64,000 nucleotides of DNA, taken from the sequence record NC_054914.1. One strand, given 5' to 3'. Under the pieces are notes generated by a model. The model was given only the letters and a program-made list of their open reading frames with translations, was not told where the DNA came from and did no database searches. The translations under genes and the position numbers were made by a program. Every line of letters begins with the position of its first letter. Within the stretch, counting starts at the first letter, position 1. Source of the stretch: Escherichia phage vB_EcoM-fFiEco06. Positions 14,724 to 61,985 of this stretch are shown piece by piece.

Positions 14724-15688
14724 TGTATTCTTTAGAGGAATTTAATAATCAAGCAATAAACGCAGATTTCCAACGTAATAATATGTTCAGCTGTGTTTTT
14801 GCTACAACTCCATCAACTAAAAGCTCTTCGTTGATAAGTTCAATTAGCAACTTTTCTTATAATAACTTGGGCCTAAATTCAGATTGGTTAGGATTAACTC
14901 AAGGCGATATTAATCAGGGAATTACTACGCTAATTACAGCTGGCACACAAAAACTGATAAGAAAATCAGGGGTTAGTAAATATCTTATTGGTGCCATGAG
15001 TCAACGTACAGTTCAAAGTTTATTAGGCTCATTTACAGTTGGTACATATTTAATTGACTTCTTTAACGTGGCATATAACTCATCTGGATTGATGATATAC
15101 TCTGTAAAAATGCCAGAGAATAGATTATCCTATGAAACTGACTGGAACTATAATTCTCCTAATATTCGTATAACTGGGAGAGAATTAGACCCTTTGGTTA
15201 TTTCATTCAGAATGGATTCAGAAGCTTGTAACTATCGTGCAATGCAAGACTGGGTTAACGCTGTTCAAGACCCAGTAACTGGATTGCGTGCTTTGCCGCA
15301 AGATGTCGAGGCAGATATTCAGGTTAATCTTCATTCTCGCAATGGATTACCACATACTGCGGTGATGTTCACTGGATGCATTCCAGTGTCCGTAAGCGCT
15401 CCTGAGTTATCATATGATGGAGATAACCAAATAACTACATTTGATGTTACTTTTGCGTATAGAGTGATGCAGGCTGGAGCAGTTGATAGACAAGCTGCCC
15501 TTGAATGGCTTGAATCTGCTACTATAAATGGTATTCAAAGCGTTCTCGGAAATAGTGGAGGTGTTACTGGACTATCTAATTCGCTTTCACGACTTAGTAG
15601 ATTAGGGGGAACTGCAGGAAGCATTTCAAATATTAATACTATGACAGGAATTGTCAATTCGCAGAGTAAAATATTAGGAGCAATATAA
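14723..15688 (+). CDS. 54: Baseplate tail tube initiator gp54
   Basis: 321 aa; synteny. Confidence 0.9.
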   Translation: MYSLEEFNNQAINADFQRNNMFSCVFATTPSTKSSSLISSISNFSYNNLGLNSDWLGLTQGDINQGITTLITAGTQKLIRKSGVSKYLIGAMSQRTVQSLLGSFTVGTYLIDFFNVAYNSSGLMIYSVKMPENRLSYETDWNYNSPNIRITGRELDPLVISFRMDSEACNYRAMQDWVNAVQDPVTGLRALPQDVEADIQVNLHSRNGLPHTAVMFTGCIPVSVSAPELSYDGDNQITTFDVTFAYRVMQAGAVDRQAALEWLESATINGIQSVLGNSGGVTGLSNSLSRLSRLGGTAGSISNINTMTGIVNSQSKILGAI

Positions 15689-15692
15689 CAAT

Positions 15693-15710
15693 GGGGACCT
15701 TTCGGTCCCC
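15693..15710. terminator. Bidirectional terminator hairpin (ggggacc-tttc-ggtcccc) between gene 54 and the alt cluster
   Basis: 7-bp GC stem; T-run on the plus side. Confidence 0.6.
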
Positions 15711-15716
15711 ATATTT

Positions 15717-16007
15717 TTATTTACGGAATGAAATGAAAGCAGAAACTGAAGCAACTAAACTGTCTTCAATATAAACTTCAATTTTTACCGGAGCTTCTGA
15801 CTCAAATTTACCTGTTACTACACCTTGGAAAATACTTTCAGTCTGTTCTGGCTTTGAAAAATTTTCAGAAGGAAAAATTCCGAACTTTTTATCTGTTCCA
15901 AAAATTTTGATAAATTCATCGTAAACTGCTTCATTAAAAGCATTATCAGCAGGAATAACTCCTTCAACTACAAGTTCTTGACCTAAAAAGCGCAAAGAAG
16001 ATTTCAT
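15717..16007 (-). CDS. Hypothetical protein (T4 alt.-3-like position)
   Basis: 96-aa ORF; has its own early promoter/SD cassette (16016..16068). Confidence 0.65.
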   Translation of the reverse strand: MKSSLRFLGQELVVEGVIPADNAFNEAVYDEFIKIFGTDKKFGIFPSENFSKPEQTESIFQGVVTGKFESEAPVKIEVYIEDSLVASVSAFISFRK

Positions 16008-16015
16008 TTTGTGTT

Positions 16016-16068
16016 CCTCATGTTATGTCAGTAAGACTACTATAACACAACACGAGGGACTTGTAAAC
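16016..16068 (-). promoter_or_regulatory. Early promoter/stem-loop cassette, copy A (identical to 31830..31882)
   Basis: Minus strand: GTTTAC (-35), 17-bp spacer, TTATAGT (-10), then GAGG Shine-Dalgarno; 12-bp imperfect inverted repeat brackets the -10. Confidence 0.6.
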
Positions 16069-18125
16069 TACATTTTGAACTTTTTAGACATTCCGTTGAT
16101 GTTAACCAAAGAAGTCAAGATTTGAGAAACTTCATTTTCCTCTTCTTTTGATTCTTCTACAAGGAATTGATTAAATCCAGCCATTGGACGAACTTCACCA
16201 GTTTCCATTAGATGGTCTCCATCATATACTGATTCTTCTAATTGTTCAGAAGGAGGAACGATTGTACCTTCGATTAGATACTTGTTATAAGCAGTTTCTT
16301 TCATAAAGTACGTACTTACTTTATTAATCTTCAGTAAAATTCCACGTGGTAGAATAACTTCAGCTTCTGATGGAAATCCTGATAAATGACCTGGAACGAT
16401 AACTTTGATTCGCTCAGCTCCTTTAATTACCATACCCACGCTAGTTTCTGCATCTTCATTAGCATATGTAGAATGACTACCCATATGCATCAAATCTTCT
16501 GCATCAACGGAACCTTCTCCTTCACCAGAAAATACTGCGCCGGAATCATCTAGAGCCATATAGTTTTTACCATGCTCACCGAAGATATTTGGTTTAAGCG
16601 ATGTGGATACGAAGTTCTTGAAATAGAACATTTTATTTTCAATGTTATGACGCAAAGTTTTAAAGGTAACTTCTTGCCCACGGTAAAGTGTAGTTCCTGG
16701 AGGAAGAACTGATCCTTTGGCAAAGGCAGAATCTAACGTCTCGATGTGCTTAATAGCTCGTTCCATGTATTCTTCACGGGTAGAATCTGGTTTACCCAAA
16801 AGGAACGAGTTCATTTCAACATATGAATCTGCACAATAATCTTCAATTACATCAGATTCAGCCTGAGTCAGTCCTTTTGGAGCTACTTCGGTGCTTGCGT
16901 ATTCATATGCCTGGGCAGCAGATTCATTAATCAATTTATAAATGCCATTCATTACAAATTGAATAATAGCTGTCTTTTCATCTGGTGTGGTTTTAGAACC
17001 TTTAACTAAATCATTAATAATTTTCTTAATAACATCAAAGCTATTAGAAATATTAATGTCAGCAAGATCGCTTAAAATTTTATCAGTTTTATAATCAAAG
17101 AATTCTTTATTCTTTAAATATTCTTGAGAACCTTGATATGTTATATCGCTCTGCAACTTGATAGATGGATCACGTAAACGTGCATGGGCCAATGCAATAT
17201 GATTTCGGAAGCTTTCTAGTTCATAATCGCTAGATTTAAAACGAGAAGCACTTCTCATACCACCGATAGCTCCTTTGCTGAAGTTTGAACCAATCTGGAT
17301 AACGCCAGAGTTCATTGGTCCTTCTGCTTTATATACCGGAACTTTAGATTCAAACTCTTGATATTTCTTGGCAGCGAAGCTATCACCCTGTAGCGAAGCA
17401 TCGACAGTAGAATATTGAGCTTGTGCTGCTAATCGACGACTAATTTTAGTTTTCTGAATAACAGCTTGGTCCGTGCGCTTATCATTTTCTAAAGCAATAG
17501 AAGCAGCAACAGCGACAGCTTTAGGAACAGCATTTCCTGTTTTAACGTCTACATAAACATCACCGACCTTTGATTCAACTTTTGTGAATAACTCAGTTGA
17601 AATGGGAGGTACACCTGGAATGTCTTCTAAATTGGCATTTTTACGGTAAACCATAATATATGCGTACTTTTTATCGTAATCCCAGATTTCCTTTAAAAGA
17701 ACATATCGACCTGCTCCTTTAGTACGTACTAAACGGTCAGCAATAACTTGCATTTGACGAGCTGCGCCATTTGTTTTACTCTTTAGTACACGGAATAAGC
17801 ACGCGTCAATTTTATACTGCTTCATTGTTTGAAGAGCAGTATCAAAAACGGCATTAATGACACCAATTGGATTTCCACCCAAGTTTTTAAGCTTAACTAA
17901 TGATAGTTTCTCATTAACACCTATCATTACGATATGCATCATTTTATCGCCTGGCTTAACGTTTTTATTCGTATCACCACCAGAGGTGTATGTACAAAAT
18001 CTAAATCCAGGAAGCACGCTTTCTTCGCCGGCTTGAATAGCAAAAATTTGTGGTATTTTATGCTTAGGATTTAAGTTAACAACCGGCGCCGAAGCGCCGT
18101 CAAATAATTCTGTAATAAGTTCCAT
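16068..18125 (-). CDS. Alt-like ADP-ribosyltransferase, diverged tandem paralog
   Basis: 685 aa; N-terminus MELITELFD… nearly identical to Alt; R-S-E ART motifs (LYRGQ, FVSTSL, EAEVILPRG). Confidence 0.85.
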   Translation of the reverse strand: MELITELFDGASAPVVNLNPKHKIPQIFAIQAGEESVLPGFRFCTYTSGGDTNKNVKPGDKMMHIVMIGVNEKLSLVKLKNLGGNPIGVINAVFDTALQTMKQYKIDACLFRVLKSKTNGAARQMQVIADRLVRTKGAGRYVLLKEIWDYDKKYAYIMVYRKNANLEDIPGVPPISTELFTKVESKVGDVYVDVKTGNAVPKAVAVAASIALENDKRTDQAVIQKTKISRRLAAQAQYSTVDASLQGDSFAAKKYQEFESKVPVYKAEGPMNSGVIQIGSNFSKGAIGGMRSASRFKSSDYELESFRNHIALAHARLRDPSIKLQSDITYQGSQEYLKNKEFFDYKTDKILSDLADINISNSFDVIKKIINDLVKGSKTTPDEKTAIIQFVMNGIYKLINESAAQAYEYASTEVAPKGLTQAESDVIEDYCADSYVEMNSFLLGKPDSTREEYMERAIKHIETLDSAFAKGSVLPPGTTLYRGQEVTFKTLRHNIENKMFYFKNFVSTSLKPNIFGEHGKNYMALDDSGAVFSGEGEGSVDAEDLMHMGSHSTYANEDAETSVGMVIKGAERIKVIVPGHLSGFPSEAEVILPRGILLKINKVSTYFMKETAYNKYLIEGTIVPPSEQLEESVYDGDHLMETGEVRPMAGFNQFLVEESKEEENEVSQILTSLVNINGMSKKFKM

Positions 18126-18128
18126 GAT

Positions 18129-20183
18129 TTATCCTTGAACGAACTTGTAAGGCATGTTTGCAATATCTATACAAGACGCAATAATTCCAAGAGATGATTC
18201 TACTTTCTGTTTAACGTTTGATGAAACAAATGATGTAAAGTCAACTCTGTCTTCTATTTCAATATCACCTGTCATTGCAACTACTTCGCCGGTTTCCATT
18301 AGACGGTCACCGTCATAAATTACCGATTCGGTGAGTTCTTCTGTGGTCATAACTTCAGCTTGAATAAGCTTGTTGTTAGTTTTAACTGTTCCATCATTGT
18401 AAGATGCATCGGTTATTTTATTAACTTTGACCATTAATCCACGTGGCAAAATGACTTCCATTTCATTTGAAGGTGCTAAACTTCCACCTGGTAAAACAAC
18501 ATTGACTTTATCAGCCCCAGTAATAACCCATCCAATTCCAACTAAATTATCGCTAGAATTTACTAGTCCTTCATCAGTTTTATCAATAGAAACACTTAAA
18601 CGCTTTTCGTCTGGTAAAACACCCACAGATGAATCAGTCATCCAGGTACCAAAAATATTTGGATATAATGATGTTGACACAAAATTTCTAAAATAAAAAA
18701 CTCGATTTTTTACCAGTGCTTCATATATTGAAGGTAACATTCGTTGTGAACGATACAAAGTAATACCTTTTGGTAATCGTTCACCATTTTTAAAGGCAGA
18801 ATCTAAATTATCAATAGCTTTTTCTATATCAGATGCTGTCAAAATACTTGTACGCTCATCTGGATTATATAATCCCAAAAGAGCGTTATTTATGTCTACA
18901 TATCCTGAACTTACGTATTCACGAATTCCGCGTTTTTGTGCCGGTGTGTATTTAGATGAATCTTTATTTTCGACTATAGGATGTAGTGACCATCCAGCGG
19001 TAAGAGCATATCCACGCAATTCTCTTCGAATAATCTTTGTTTTTATTGCATTCCAAGAATTTTGTACTAACTCATTCGCAGCATCTTGATTTAAATGCGA
19101 ATGCTTGTTAATGTTTCTTTCTAACCAAGCACCTTTATATTTTTCTAAAGTATCATCAACTATAGAAGCAATAGTTTCTAAAGTTTTTATTGAAGTAATA
19201 GATTCTTTTCGTAATCTTTCTAAAGCTTTATTTTTTATTTCTGCATTAACATCAGATTCTTTATCTTCAGGAATTATAGAAGCTTCTCTGAATGCCATTC
19301 CAGCTGTAACACTACTAAGAGCATTCTCTAATGCAAATCCTGAAGTAGAAATAACAGTTAATTCATTAGCGTCAGAAATTAAAGGAGCGTCAGCAGGTTT
19401 ATTTAATTCTGCTGCTGAAGCCTCAAATTTTTGAAACATCGGCGTTTCAAATCTAGAAGATTCCAATGATTGACTTTGCGCAATTGCTCTACGGGAAATT
19501 TTAACTTTAACGATTACAGCTTGGTCAGAACGTTTATCATTTTCTTGCGCAATAGATGCTGCAATTGCCTCATTTTTAGTTACTTGAGCTCCAGTATCTT
19601 TATTGATATAAACATCACCGACCTTCGATTCAACTTTAGTAAAGAGCTCAGTACTAATTTCCGGAACTCCCGGAATGTCTTCTAGTGATACATTTTTGCG
19701 ATGTATAAGAATATATGCATACTTTTTATCGTAATCCCAGAGTTCCTTAAGAAGGACATATCTGCCACCTGAACGACTACGGATAAGTCTATCAGCAATA
19801 ACTTGAATTTGTCGAGCTTGACCAGCGGTTTTAGACTTAAGAATACGAAGCATACAGGCATCAATTTTATACTGACGCATTGTTTGCATCGCAACAGTAA
19901 AAACTGAATTGATATAATTAATTGGGCTTGGACCAAGACCTTTTAATTTAGCAATTGAACCTTTAGCAGTTAATGTAAAAGGAACAATATGCATCATTTT
20001 ATCGCCCATCTTTAAATCGCGATTAGTATCACCTCCAGATGTATAGGTACATAAACGAAAGCCTGGTTGTTCAATTGCATCATCAACATGAACTGAAAAA
20101 ATTTGCGGTATTTTCTTCTTTGGATTTAAGTTTGTAATCGGAAGAGTAGTATCTTCGTCAAATAATTCTGTAATAAGTTCCAT
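18129..20183 (-). CDS. alt: Alt ADP-ribosyltransferase (packaged internal head protein)
   Basis: About 684 aa from the second Met; ART motifs LYRSQ, FVSTSL, EMEVILPRG; N-terminal ITE prohead-protease-type site. Confidence 0.88.
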   Translation of the reverse strand: MELITELFDEDTTLPITNLNPKKKIPQIFSVHVDDAIEQPGFRLCTYTSGGDTNRDLKMGDKMMHIVPFTLTAKGSIAKLKGLGPSPINYINSVFTVAMQTMRQYKIDACMLRILKSKTAGQARQIQVIADRLIRSRSGGRYVLLKELWDYDKKYAYILIHRKNVSLEDIPGVPEISTELFTKVESKVGDVYINKDTGAQVTKNEAIAASIAQENDKRSDQAVIVKVKISRRAIAQSQSLESSRFETPMFQKFEASAAELNKPADAPLISDANELTVISTSGFALENALSSVTAGMAFREASIIPEDKESDVNAEIKNKALERLRKESITSIKTLETIASIVDDTLEKYKGAWLERNINKHSHLNQDAANELVQNSWNAIKTKIIRRELRGYALTAGWSLHPIVENKDSSKYTPAQKRGIREYVSSGYVDINNALLGLYNPDERTSILTASDIEKAIDNLDSAFKNGERLPKGITLYRSQRMLPSIYEALVKNRVFYFRNFVSTSLYPNIFGTWMTDSSVGVLPDEKRLSVSIDKTDEGLVNSSDNLVGIGWVITGADKVNVVLPGGSLAPSNEMEVILPRGLMVKVNKITDASYNDGTVKTNNKLIQAEVMTTEELTESVIYDGDRLMETGEVVAMTGDIEIEDRVDFTSFVSSNVKQKVESSLGIIASCIDIANMPYKFVQG

Positions 20184-20206
20184 CATAGCCTCTCTAGTGT
20201 TTATTC

Positions 20207-20214
20207 TATTTATA
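20207..20214 (-). promoter_or_regulatory. Late promoter TATAAATA (minus strand) upstream of alt
   Basis: Plus-strand tatttata about 25 nt upstream of the alt start. Confidence 0.55.
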
Positions 20215-20235
20215 AAATTAAAGGCCCGAAGGCCT

Positions 20236-20424
20236 TTAATAATCTAGTGGTAAGAGAGTACGGTATATTTCAAACTTTGGACCTTTTTCATAGGCATCAA
20301 ATGTTTCTGTGAATTTATTATAAGCGTATGCATCTACAAATTCGAGAATGACTTGTGATACAGAAGTAGAAACATCTCCACCTTCTTTTTGAGCAATGAC
20401 AATTGTTTCTAAGTAAGCTTTCAT
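20236..20424 (-). CDS. Hypothetical small protein
   Basis: 62-aa ORF, overlaps the gene 30 stop. Confidence 0.5.
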   Translation of the reverse strand: MKAYLETIVIAQKEGGDVSTSVSQVILEFVDAYAYNKFTETFDAYEKGPKFEIYRTLLPLDY

Positions 20425-24966: not shown

Positions 24967-25053
24967 TTTATTCTCCTTTGTTTGTGTAAGATAATACTAT
25001 CACAAAGGAACCATACTGTAAACAACTTTGTGCAATCTTTGGAAAATAAAAAA

Positions 25054-30977: not shown

Positions 30978-31327
30978 TTAGAAAGGTCCTGGATGTCTTC
31001 TGCGAACTTGTTGAAGGAGTTGTTGATTTGTTTTTCAACCAATCCTGGCTTACGAGCCACCACATCCGCCTTCTTTGCATCTTTGCGCAGTTTTTCATTT
31101 TCACGCTCAATAGCAGCAATCGCCTCACGATTTTTATTATTCATCGCATCAATATAATTATACTGAATTCGCAAATTATTTAATGCTAAGGCGTTTTCAT
31201 TGGCCGTTTTTGTAATTTCTACAACAGACGTTTCTAATCTTTCAATTTTATTTTTTAAAATTAAAGAAGTTCCGCCTAATGCAATTACAATTAATAGCAA
31301 ACCTGCTGTCGTATTACTTAATTGCAT
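30974..31327 (-). CDS. Inner-membrane spanin-like protein (i-spanin candidate)
   Basis: N-terminal transmembrane helix followed by a coiled-coil-like region; 117 aa. Confidence 0.65.
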   Translation of the reverse strand: MQLSNTTAGLLLIVIALGGTSLILKNKIERLETSVVEITKTANENALALNNLRIQYNYIDAMNNKNREAIAAIERENEKLRKDAKKADVVARKPGLVEKQINNSFNKFAEDIQDLSK

Positions 31328-31824
31328 AAAGTTTTAATAACCTCTATAATATCGTCTTGAGAAAGACCGTTAATTAAAATATGATGTTCAGCCGGAGATT
31401 TAGAAATTTTAAAGCACGCCGCAACATCTTCTGCCATATCCGATGCGCTACGATTTGGATTACTAATTCCAAGACGATGTTTTCCCGTTAAAGGATTAAC
31501 GATGATATAGCATTTACAGTTGTTAATATGAACATTAGGTTGAGTCTGATTAATGAACACATCGCAATCATATTTCGCAAGCTGATTTTCTAAAAAGACT
31601 TTCATCTCCTCAACCGCATCAGGAAGCATATCACGGGCTTGCTCAAGACGACGATTTCGATATTCTTTAATGGTCGTTTTCCGCTTGACTTGCTTAGCTA
31701 AATCTTTCTTAAGATCGGTGATATATCCAACTCGACGATTTCCTTTAAATACAGAAATCCCATCTGTAGTATCACCGTATGCTTCAACGACCATTTCAGT
31801 AGTAATAAGCTGCAAATCCATCAT
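31318..31824 (-). CDS. alc: Alc, host transcription terminator for cytosine-containing DNA
   Basis: 168 aa; position between the spanin pair and rnlA as in T4. Confidence 0.8.
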   Translation of the reverse strand: MMDLQLITTEMVVEAYGDTTDGISVFKGNRRVGYITDLKKDLAKQVKRKTTIKEYRNRRLEQARDMLPDAVEEMKVFLENQLAKYDCDVFINQTQPNVHINNCKCYIIVNPLTGKHRLGISNPNRSASDMAEDVAACFKISKSPAEHHILINGLSQDDIIEVIKTLCN

Positions 31825-31829
31825 AAAGT

Positions 31830-31882
31830 CCTCATGTTATGTCAGTAAGACTACTATAACACAACACGAGGGACTTGTAAAC
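31830..31882 (-). promoter_or_regulatory. Early promoter/stem-loop cassette, copy B (identical to 16016..16068)
   Basis: 53-bp perfect copy; supplies -35, -10 and SD for alc. Confidence 0.6.
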
Positions 31883-61420: not shown

Positions 61421-61465
61421 TGATAGGGTAATAGTACCACGGAAGAACAGTCTTGTAAACAACTT
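61421..61465 (-). promoter_or_regulatory. Early promoter
   Basis: Minus strand GTTTACAAGACTGTTCTTCCGTGGTACTATTACC (-35 and -10). Confidence 0.45.
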
Positions 61466-61926: not shown

Positions 61927-61985
61927 TAGTTGTATAGTACCACGGTCCTTGTGGTATGTAAACTGTTTTGTGAAAATTTTTTAAA
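61927..61985 (-). promoter_or_regulatory. Early promoter with UP element
   Basis: Third copy of the gatagttgtatagtacca … tgtaaac … ttttgtgaaaa cassette. Confidence 0.5.

What the first reader, a model, noticed from the sequence alone, without database searches (positions are those of the whole stretch)
15717..16068. alt.-3-like gene carries its own early promoter cassette, identical to the one driving alc
The 96-aa gene downstream of the alt pair does not depend on the alt late promoter. It is preceded by a 53-bp cassette (16016..16068) that is repeated perfectly at 31830..31882, upstream of alc. From memory, and unverified here, alt.-3 of T4 has been linked to triggering or escape from a capsid-sensing toxin-antitoxin defence, which would make its independent early expression relevant.
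Basis: partly seen in the sequence, partly recalled or inferred. Interest (0 to 1): 0.5.

Follow-up and report, generated by a model that had tools for sequence, protein, structure and literature searches.

The report
Shared early-promoter cassette before alt.-3 and alc
In this T4-type phage the small gene alt.-3 is preceded by an exact 54-bp copy of the early promoter, leader and ribosome-binding site that also precedes alc; T4 itself has the same arrangement, and the only possibly new point is that the promoter's spacer is complementary to the ribosome-binding site, so probably only RNA started at this promoter is translated.

Summary
The window is a Tequatrovirus. ORF 15717-16007(-) is the Alt.-3 orthologue (Pfam DUF5498). 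An exact 54-bp (not 53-bp) direct repeat lies at 16015-16068 and 31829-31882, upstream of alt.-3 and alc. It fills each intergenic gap: TTTACA-17-TATAGT with a TG extended -10, a roughly 25-nt leader, and a GAGGA ribosome-binding site.

T4 carries the same two copies. Published T4 omics class alt.-3 and alc as early RNA and early protein, whereas alt, alt.-1 and alt.-2 directly upstream are middle RNA. So the autonomous early promoter is supported, and it is ordinary T4 biology.

The remembered defence link is half right. C-terminally extended Alt.-3 mutants escape CmdTAC, but wild-type Alt.-3 is neither trigger nor inhibitor.

What I add: on read-through RNA the promoter spacer pairs with the ribosome-binding site (-23 and -27 kcal/mol). 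RNA started at the cassette lacks that arm. At alc this pairing covaries across T4-like genera. At alt.-3 it is found in Tequatrovirus and, through an unrelated pairing, in Kanagawavirus. Tequatrovirus alt.-3 therefore most likely acquired alc's cassette.

The cassette fits the published PeSL class and mirrors the late-promoter hairpins of T4 genes e, soc, 49 and I-TevI. The translational effect is inferred, not shown.

The parts
15717..16007 (-). alt.-3 orthologue, 96 aa (DUF5498)
16015..16068 (-). cassette copy 1: early promoter + leader + ribosome-binding site (SD), 54 bp; begins with the G of the alt paralogue's TAG stop codon
   Evidence: Exact repeat; sequence.
16062..16067 (-). -35 hexamer TTTACA
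   Evidence: Promoter scan, 10/12 with TG.
16039..16047 (-). extended -10: TGT + TATAGT
   Evidence: Promoter scan; sequence.
16032..16032 (-). predicted transcription start (A, 7 nt after the -10). Inferred, not mapped.
   Evidence: Inference from promoter geometry.
16044..16060 (-). 5' arm of the hairpin (anti-SD), lying in the -35/-10 spacer and present only in RNA that reads in from upstream
   Evidence: MFE structure, -23 kcal/mol, z -3.8.
16013..16029 (-). 3' arm of the hairpin, containing the ribosome-binding site GAGGA (16015-16019)
   Evidence: TIR opening cost is 18 kcal/mol on read-through RNA against 2.3 on promoter-initiated RNA.
15691..15712 (.). bidirectional terminator hairpin between alt.-3 and gene 54
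   Evidence: Terminator scan, both strands.
31829..31882 (-). cassette copy 2, upstream of alc (-35 at 31876-31881, -10 at 31853-31858, SD at 31829-31833)
   Evidence: Exact repeat; hairpin -27.4 kcal/mol, z -5.3.
31318..31824 (-). alc (inhibitor of host transcription), 168 aa from the first ATG
   Evidence: Annotation of the identical phage; tblastn.
16068..20186 (-). two tandem 685-aa alt (ADP-ribosyltransferase) paralogues forming the upstream transcription unit
   Evidence: ORFs; annotation.
20207..20237 (-). terminator hairpin (20220-20237) followed by late promoter TATAAATA (20207-20214), 20 nt before the first alt ATG
   Evidence: Sequence; motif search.

Best explanation
The 54-bp element is a T4-type early-promoter cassette of the PeSL kind: sigma-70 promoter, stem-loop, ribosome-binding site. 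It makes alt.-3 an immediate-early gene with the same promoter and leader as alc.

Host RNA polymerase starts about 7 nt after TATAGT (inferred). That gives a roughly 25-nt unstructured leader with an exposed GAGGA, and the gene is translated strongly.

RNA arriving from upstream also contains the -35/-10 spacer. At alt.-3 this is the late alt transcript; at alc it is the rnlA transcript. The spacer sequence CCUCGUGUUGUGUU pairs with GACAUAACAUGAGG and buries the ribosome-binding site in a 20-bp hairpin. Such RNA should be poorly translated, and perhaps attenuated.

The cassette therefore both drives the gene and insulates it from its neighbours' timing.

The spacer-to-ribosome-site pairing is the ancestral, covarying state at alc. 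The Tequatrovirus ancestor most likely overwrote the native alt.-3 promoter with a copy of the alc cassette by recombination between similar promoters.

Shown: the repeat, the promoter signals, early expression in T4, and covariation of the alc hairpin.

Inferred: the start site, the translational block, and the direction of copying.
For: Repeat and promoter:
-.
- T4 has both copies, 53/54 and 54/54 identical.
- About 500 Tequatrovirus records show two BLAST places each.

Early expression in T4:
- alt.-3 and alc are early RNA and early protein. alt, alt.-1 and alt.-2 are middle RNA.
- Alt.-3 is detected at 1 min and plateaus by 5-12 min at about 2e9 LFQ.

Hairpin:
- -23.0 kcal/mol (z -3.8) at alt.-3 and -27.4 (z -5.3) at alc. 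RNA from the predicted start folds at only -2 kcal/mol.
- TIR opening cost is 18.1-18.2 against 2.3 kcal/mol at alt.-3, and 20.7-21.5 against 3.7 at alc.

Covariation at alc:
- In 22 of 29 distinct alc promoter-leaders from IMG/VR T4-like genomes, read-through RNA costs at least 8 kcal/mol more to open (median 11.0).
- Arm sequences differ by genus but stay complementary.
- Spacer-by-TIR duplex energy is -15.1 for cognate pairs and -7.9 for non-cognate pairs. For 12 divergent representatives it is -10.9 against -6.6 +/- 0.8, with 0 of 5000 permutations as low.
- On a sequence-only alignment of 8 leaders, a 13-bp helix is 97% paired with 4 doubly-changed pairs. The covariation score is 0.247 against 0.104 +/- 0.024 (0/500). 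Slid registers give 32-53% pairing.

Direction of copying:
- At alt.-3 only the 3 Tequatrovirus and 3 Kanagawavirus sequences out of 19 show occlusion. The other genera have a short hairpin inside the spacer.
- The T4-type spacer resembles alc spacers of other genera.

Exchange recurs:
- A different 32-nt leader block is shared by alc and alt.-3 in one Dhakavirus-like genome.
- A T4 alt.-3-type leader sits before another gene in Mosigvirus.
Against: - No 5' end has been mapped here, and I found no T4 start-site dataset.
- No translation measurement exists for read-through RNA.
- The T4 proteome cannot test late silence. Alt.-3 is already at about 2e9 LFQ, and an equimolar late addition would be about 7% (my estimate).
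- The stem is not strictly protected within Tequatrovirus. KIT03 has a G-to-A change that breaks a central G-C pair (-16.8 kcal/mol), and one IMG/VR genome breaks the terminal pair. The other 5'-arm changes seen (C-to-U, G-to-A) keep pairing, but there are too few for a test.
- Sense and antisense folds are equally stable across genera (p 0.42). RNA-level rather than DNA-level selection is therefore indicated only by the three G-U pairs of the T4-type stem.
- In this window 3 of 7 hairpin-bearing early promoters do not reach the ribosome-binding site. Mosigvirus and a few other alc promoters lack occlusion. The selected property may be 'a hairpin across the -10' rather than occlusion.
- I could not read Miller et al. 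2003, so prior description cannot be excluded.
Confidence: 0.6

Rival explanations
1. The stem-loop is a transcriptional attenuator/terminator, or a 3'-end stabiliser for the upstream transcript, as originally proposed for PeSLs. Overlap with the ribosome-binding site is incidental.
For: A PeSL stem-loop cut lacZ expression as strongly as rrnB T1 in a transcriptional fusion (PMC2839356). Several early promoters in this window, and some alc promoters, have hairpins across the -10 that stop short of the ribosome-binding site. With a leader of only about 25 nt, a 10-14-nt arm will often overlap the ribosome-binding site by chance.
Against: No U-run follows the stem at alt.-3 (AACACAAAAUG) or in most alc versions. 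At alc the 5' arm starts with the complement of the ribosome-binding site immediately after the -35 in about 9 of 12 hairpin-bearing lineages.
Confidence: 0.25
2. The repeat is only the footprint of gene conversion between two similar promoters in a highly recombinogenic phage. At alt.-3 the hairpin is a passenger with no function beyond the promoter.
For: Other genera express alt.-3 from a promoter without occlusion. The alt.-3 copies accumulate pair-breaking changes. Promoter sub-modules are shared mosaically among other early promoters.
Against: All sampled Tequatroviruses keep both copies nearly intact. Kanagawavirus independently evolved a different spacer-to-start-codon pairing at alt.-3, -30 kcal/mol. 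This suggests that occlusion is also useful downstream of the late alt unit.
Confidence: 0.3
3. The inverted repeat acts at the DNA level, as a cruciform, a recombination hotspot or a promoter-architecture element, rather than in RNA.
For: Most stems outside Tequatrovirus are pure Watson-Crick pairs, and sense and antisense folds are equally stable. PeSLs were shown to recombine and form mini-circles.
Against: The T4-type stem has three G-U pairs, giving -24 kcal/mol in the sense strand against -14.6 in the antisense. The arm sequences are not conserved, so no protein site is implied.
Confidence: 0.1
4. alt.-3 is expressed mainly by read-through or translational coupling from the late alt transcript. 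The promoter-like sequence is not used.
For: Same strand, no terminator between alt and alt.-3, and the stop codon overlaps the -35.
Against: T4 Alt.-3 appears at 1 min and plateaus by 5-12 min, whereas Alt rises about 24-fold between 8 and 30 min. The RNA classes also differ, early against middle. The main stem starts 11 nt after the stop codon, beyond the reach of a terminating ribosome (my inference).
Confidence: 0.03

Closest known systems
PeSL (promoter-early stem-loop) regulatory cassettes of T4-like phages (Arbiol et al. 2010, PMC2839356; Comeau et al. 2014, PMC4122927)
   Same: [quoted passage not shown] Has a sigma-70-type early promoter (T4/PST consensus TTTACW-N17-TAYWAT), a stem-loop between -35 and -10 or across the -10, and a ribosome-binding site at the 3' end. 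Repeated at several loci and implicated in recombination.
   Different: The PeSL papers treat the stem-loop as a terminator/attenuator and never discuss translation. Here the 3' arm is the ribosome-binding site itself. The two copies lie 15.8 kb apart and flank essential genes, not ORFans in a hyperplastic region.
Inhibitory hairpins at the translation-initiation regions of T4 genes e, soc, 49 and I-TevI, each with a promoter inside the 5' arm (reviewed in Uzan and Miller 2010, PMC3014915)
   Same: Long transcripts bury the ribosome-binding site or AUG. Transcripts started at a promoter inside or after the 5' arm lack it and are translated. The structure is conserved in related phages.
   Different: In the known cases the embedded promoter is late (TATAAATA) and gives late-only translation. 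Here it is an early sigma-70 promoter and would give early-only translation. No experiment exists for alc or alt.-3.
T4 early promoters (Pe) as catalogued for T4
   Same: GTTTAC -35, TG extended -10, and very strong expression within 1 min of infection.
   Different: This pair shares the whole spacer and leader as well. Other early promoters in the window share at most 26 nt.
Alt.-3 in the CmdTAC study (Vassallo et al., Nature 2024, PMC11618068)
   Same: Same gene, 95/96 residues identical to T4 Alt.-3 by eye.
   Different: Only C-terminally extended mutants counter CmdTAC. Wild-type function remains unknown.

Membership tests
PeSL cassette | [quoted passage not shown] | tested here: met
   Copy 1 starts with the G of the alt TAG and ends 7 nt before the ATG. 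Copy 2 starts 3 nt after the rnlA TAA and ends 4 nt before the ATG.
PeSL cassette | Sigma-70-like early promoter (T4/PST type TTTACW-N17-TAYWAT) | tested here: met
   TTTACA-17-TATAGT with TG, which is one departure from TAYWAT (G at position 5). T4 orthologues are expressed early.
PeSL cassette | Stable stem-loop between -35 and -10 or overlapping the -10 | tested here: met
   -23 and -27 kcal/mol, z -3.8 and -5.3, with the -10 in the apical part.
PeSL cassette | Ribosome-binding site and start codon at the 3' end | tested here: met
   GAGGA 7 nt (alt.-3) or 4 nt (alc) before the ATG.
PeSL cassette | Stem-loop terminates or attenuates upstream transcription | not testable with these tools
   No U-tract after the stem. 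Needs in vitro transcription or 3'-end mapping.
PeSL cassette | Mediates recombination or shuffling between loci | tested here: inconclusive
   The same cassette sits at two loci. A second, independent alc/alt.-3 leader exchange and a Mosigvirus relative exist. No recombinant junction or mini-circle was observed.
Promoter-in-hairpin translational gating (T4 e / soc / 49 / I-TevI type) | Ribosome-binding site or AUG base-paired in transcripts from upstream promoters | tested here: met
   Prediction only: opening cost 18-21 kcal/mol. The helix covaries at alc.
Promoter-in-hairpin translational gating (T4 e / soc / 49 / I-TevI type) | Proximal promoter starts transcription inside or after the 5' arm, so its RNA lacks the inhibitory strand | tested here: inconclusive
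   The geometry predicts +1 about 12 nt 3' of the 5' arm. The 5' end is not mapped.
Promoter-in-hairpin translational gating (T4 e / soc / 49 / I-TevI type) | Embedded promoter is a late promoter (TATAAATA) | tested here: not met
   It is an early sigma-70 promoter. The only TATAAATA nearby is at 20207-20214.
Promoter-in-hairpin translational gating (T4 e / soc / 49 / I-TevI type) | Measured reduction of translation on the long RNA | not testable with these tools
   Needs toeprinting or reporter fusions.
Alt.-3 / DUF5498 protein family | Full-length match to the family profile and conserved position between alt and gene 54 | tested here: met
   E 5e-64 over residues 1-96. Synteny is kept in seven genera.

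The most novel reading that the evidence does not exclude
T4-like phages use a class of self-insulating early promoters. Their -35/-10 spacer encodes the complement of the downstream ribosome-binding site, so a gene is translatable only from RNA born at its own promoter. This is the early-gene mirror image of the late-promoter hairpins of e, soc, 49 and I-TevI. At alc the device has been maintained by compensatory change across most Tevenvirinae genera. It has been transplanted as a unit to alt.-3 in Tequatrovirus, tying Alt.-3 production to the first minutes of infection despite the late alt transcripts that run into it.
Probability: 0.45. Interest if true: 0.55.

Novelty: new variant of a known kind. 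Interest (0 to 1): 0.4.

Why it matters
As reported, the finding is ordinary. T4 has the same duplicated promoter, and T4 omics already class alt.-3 as early.

If the added reading holds, three things follow.

1. It explains how T4-type phages keep alc, and by transfer alt.-3, strictly early even though they sit downstream of units transcribed later.
2. It gives PeSL stem-loops a translational role that their describers did not consider.
3. It provides a compact 54-bp 'promoter plus insulator' part for phage engineering.

It also bears on the CmdTAC escape mutants. The extended Alt.-3 variants are made from a very strong immediate-early cassette, well before the capsid protein that triggers the defence.

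Tried and rejected
- Metagenome scan with the 15-mer TATAGTAGTCTTACT.
I replaced it with an alignment-free permutation test and a sequence-alignable subset.
- The search for related loci with the 7-sequence Alt.-3 alignment failed for lack of a conserved stretch. I used gp54 as the anchor instead.
- The search for homologous proteins gave only 7 hits.
- Rfam returned nothing near threshold.
- Miller et al. 2003 is not held. No T4 start-site dataset was found, and no paper on an alc leader structure.
- The sense-versus-antisense stability test for RNA-level selection was not significant across genera.
- Substitution pattern within Tequatrovirus stems: 4-5 pair-preserving changes against 2 pair-breaking, too few to test.
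- Stop-codon loss in this phage would give a 117-aa Alt.-3. In T4 the same frame stays open for at least 31 further codons, giving a product well over 117 aa. The match to the published 117-aa escape variant is therefore coincidental and I dropped it.
- Late flatness of Alt.-3 in the T4 proteome is not decisive, for reasons of mass scaling.

Full report
**What the window is.** The stretch 15400-16400 is 100% identical to Escherichia phage vB_EcoM-fHoEco02 and 95-99% identical to almost all of the other 498 matching T4-type records (3 are 90-95%). The gene order is 29, 48, 54 on the + strand. Converging on it on the - strand are alt.-3, two full-length alt paralogues, alt.1, 30 and so on up to alc and rnlA.

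**Checking the observation.**
- ORF 15717-16007(-) encodes 96 aa. It matches Pfam DUF5498 end to end (E 5e-64) and phrog_1739, and is the Alt.-3 orthologue.
- The repeat is exact over 54 bp, at 16015-16068 and 31829-31882, both on the - strand. It is one base longer than reported. None is expected by chance, and there is no third copy in the window even at 3 mismatches.
- Identity stops sharply at the G of GTTTAC on one side and after GAGGA on the other.
- Among all pairs of early-promoter regions in the window this is the outlier: 54 nt shared, against 26, 23 and 19 for the next three and a median of 8.
- The cassette reads TTTACA-17-TATAGT with a TG extended -10. It ties for the highest consensus score (10 of 12) in an 8-kb scan and is the only such site with a TG extended -10. 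A leader and GAGGA follow, 7 nt before the alt.-3 ATG and 4 nt before the alc ATG.
- The alt pair has its own terminator and late promoter, TATAAATA at 20207-20214. No terminator lies between alt and alt.-3, so late alt transcripts should run into the cassette and stop at the bidirectional terminator at 15691-15712.

**It is not peculiar to this phage.** T4 carries the same cassette before alt.-3 (one G-to-A difference) and before alc (identical). Nearly all sampled Tequatrovirus records show two BLAST places. Another group annotated the alt.-3 copy as a T4-type early promoter in phage ASO78A.

**Experimental support from T4** (Wolfram-Schauerte et al. 2022, PMC9697503).
- alt.-3 and alc are 'early RNA, early protein'. 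alt is 'middle RNA, late protein'. alt.-1 and alt.-2 are middle RNA with no protein detected.
- In the proteome series (0, 1, 3, 5, 8, 12, 20 and 30 min) Alt.-3 is seen at 1 min, reaches about 1-1.6e9 LFQ by 5 min, and stays near 2e9.
- Alt rises from about 4e7 at 8 min to about 1e9 at 30 min.
- The kinetic class of alt.-3 therefore differs from that of the three genes directly upstream on the same strand. That difference requires initiation at the cassette.
- The flat late profile of Alt.-3 is compatible with late translational silence but cannot prove it. LFQ scales with protein mass, so an equimolar late addition would be only a few per cent (my estimate).

**Anatomy beyond the promoter.**
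- RNA that includes the spacer folds into a long hairpin. CCUCGUGUUGUGUU lies between the -35 and -10. It pairs with GACAUAACAUGAGG, which contains the ribosome-binding site.
- The fold is -23.0 kcal/mol (z -3.8) at alt.-3 and -27.4 (z -5.3) at alc.
- RNA starting at the predicted +1 lacks the 5' arm and is essentially unstructured (-2 kcal/mol).
- Opening the ribosome-docking region (-16 to +5) costs 18 kcal/mol on read-through RNA against 2.3 on promoter-initiated RNA for alt.-3. For alc the figures are 21 against 3.7.

**Is the hairpin selected?** I collected alc and alt.-3 upstream regions from T4-like genomes in IMG/VR and GenBank.
- At alc the 5' arm begins right after GTTTACA and is complementary to the ribosome-binding-site region in most genera, with unrelated arm sequences. 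Examples: UCUCCAUUUGGUU/AACCAAAUGGAGA, UCCUCAUCAG/CUGAUGAGGA, UCCUCAUUUUGUUG/CAACAAAAUGAGGA, CCUCUCGUUUUUG/CAAAAACGAGAGG, UCUCCUCAU/AUGAGGAGA.
- Cognate spacer-by-TIR duplexes average -15.1 kcal/mol against -7.9 for non-cognate pairs. With 12 divergent representatives, none of 5000 permutations reaches the observed mean.
- On a purely sequence-based alignment of eight leaders, a 13-bp helix is 97% paired and four pairs have changed on both sides. The covariation score is 0.247 against 0.104 +/- 0.024 (0/500). Sliding the register drops pairing to 32-53%.
- Overall, 22 of 29 distinct alc leaders show at least 8 kcal/mol of extra opening cost on read-through RNA (median 11.0).

**At alt.-3 the picture differs.** Other genera keep the promoter in exactly the same place: the alt stop codon overlaps the -35, and the gap is 57-59 bp. 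But they have only a short covarying hairpin inside the spacer. Occlusion is seen only in Tequatrovirus and, by a different pairing of the spacer with codons 2-4, in Kanagawavirus. The T4-type spacer and leader also resemble alc cassettes of other genera. The parsimonious reading is that the Tequatrovirus ancestor replaced the native alt.-3 promoter with a copy of the alc cassette.

**Exchange of such blocks recurs.** One Dhakavirus-like genome shares a different 32-nt leader block between alc and alt.-3. Mosigviruses carry a T4 alt.-3-type leader before an unrelated 66-aa gene next to ndd.

**Comparison with what is known.**
- The element meets the published definition of a PeSL. That definition covers an upstream stop codon, a sigma-70 early promoter, a stem-loop between or across the promoter boxes, a ribosome-binding site and an ATG.
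- The PeSL papers propose termination and recombination, and do not mention translation.
- Mechanistically it mirrors T4 genes e, soc, 49 and I-TevI. There a late promoter inside the 5' arm of a TIR-sequestering hairpin restricts translation to late transcripts. Here the embedded promoter is early.
- I found no description of this for alc or alt.-3 in the searchable library. I could not read the main T4 genome review.

**Caveats.**
- The start site and the translational effect are inferred.
- Within Tequatrovirus some alt.-3 copies carry pair-breaking changes: KIT03 folds at -16.8 kcal/mol, and one IMG/VR genome breaks the terminal pair. The remaining variants keep pairing, but they are too few to test.
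- Sense and antisense folds are equally stable across genera. Only the three G-U pairs of the T4-type stem argue for RNA.
- In this window early-promoter spacers are in general complementary to their own leaders: -10.8 against -7.2 +/- 0.9 kcal/mol, with 1 of 5000 permutations as low. Yet 3 of 7 such hairpins stop before the ribosome-binding site.
- An attenuator role, or a generic 'hairpin across the -10', therefore remains a live rival.

**Verdict.** The added layer is a new variant of known kinds and is testable with simple reporters. That layer is a covarying anti-ribosome-site arm inside the early promoter of alc, copied wholesale to alt.-3. Interest 0.4.

Noticed in passing
window - strand; first base of -35 at 61962, 61459, 58267, 57922, 55462, 44859, 41559, 40849, 31881, 28561, 25022, 24592, 16067: At least 13 T4-type early promoters. 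Seven of 12 examined lie in hairpins that straddle the -10. The ribosome-binding site is also occluded at 61459 (a 37-aa membrane ORF) and at 25022 (a gene 30.8-like ORF). Spacers are more complementary to their own leaders than to others (1/5000 permutations).
   Followed up: partly
window 58267/41559, 58267/57922, 61962/58267 (- strand): Other early promoters share sub-modules: 26 nt of UP region plus -35, 23 nt of leader, and 19 nt of -10 plus initial transcribed sequence. This looks like mosaic shuffling of promoter parts.
   Followed up: no
L027, L028, L029, L031, L032 at about 2440-2500; L199-L238: alt.-3 promoters outside Tequatrovirus have a covarying 4-6-bp hairpin entirely inside the -35/-10 spacer with a GGA(A) loop (CCACAaggaTGTGG, GCACATggATGTGT, TCCACATggaAGTGGA, ATCCatggaaGGAT). 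It lies upstream of the start site, and its role is unknown.
   Followed up: partly
L030 2441-2515; L206, L210, L224: In Kanagawavirus (CIP9-like) phages the alt.-3 promoter spacer GAATGAACG pairs with codons 2-4 (CGTTCATTC), about -30 kcal/mol. This is an independent way of burying the start region on read-through RNA.
   Followed up: partly
L180 (alc) and L215 (alt.-3), IMG/VR contig 2706795356: The two genes share a 32-nt block, ACCTTACACAAACATGAGGAGAACATTATGAA, that the alc leaders of JS98/JS10 relatives lack. This is a second, independent exchange between the same two loci.
   Followed up: partly
L006 1195-1262, L007, L008, L010, L017: Mosigvirus: a 66-aa gene upstream of ndd is preceded by TATAGTAGTCCTACTGAAACATGAGGAACACAAAATG. 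This is the T4 alt.-3-type leader, including the ACACAAA tail outside the 54-bp repeat. Related cassettes in L011, L015 and L012 show compensatory changes in a spacer/+1 stem.
   Followed up: partly
window 15691-15712 versus L001 4728-4750: The terminator between alt.-3 and gene 54 is GGGGACCgaaaGGTCCCC here and GGACCtttcGGTCC in T4. The loop is inverted and the stem is longer.
   Followed up: no
window 16068-18125 versus L001 5066-5451: The window has a second full 685-aa alt paralogue where T4 has only the remnants alt.-1 and alt.-2. Homology to T4 resumes 20 nt upstream of the cassette.
   Followed up: no
NC_054916 (phage G28), hit H71: BLAST reports three places for the cassette in this genome instead of two. 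The third was not located.
   Followed up: no
T4 gene 54 (L001 3754-4716): The T4 omics tables class the late structural gene 54 as 'early RNA, late protein'. This might reflect antisense read-through from the strong alt.-3 early transcript or an unstranded library.
   Followed up: no
window 31818-31824: alc has two adjacent ATGs. The first is 4 nt and the second 7 nt from GAGGA. T4 is annotated from the second (167 aa) and fHoEco02 from the first (168 aa).
   Followed up: no
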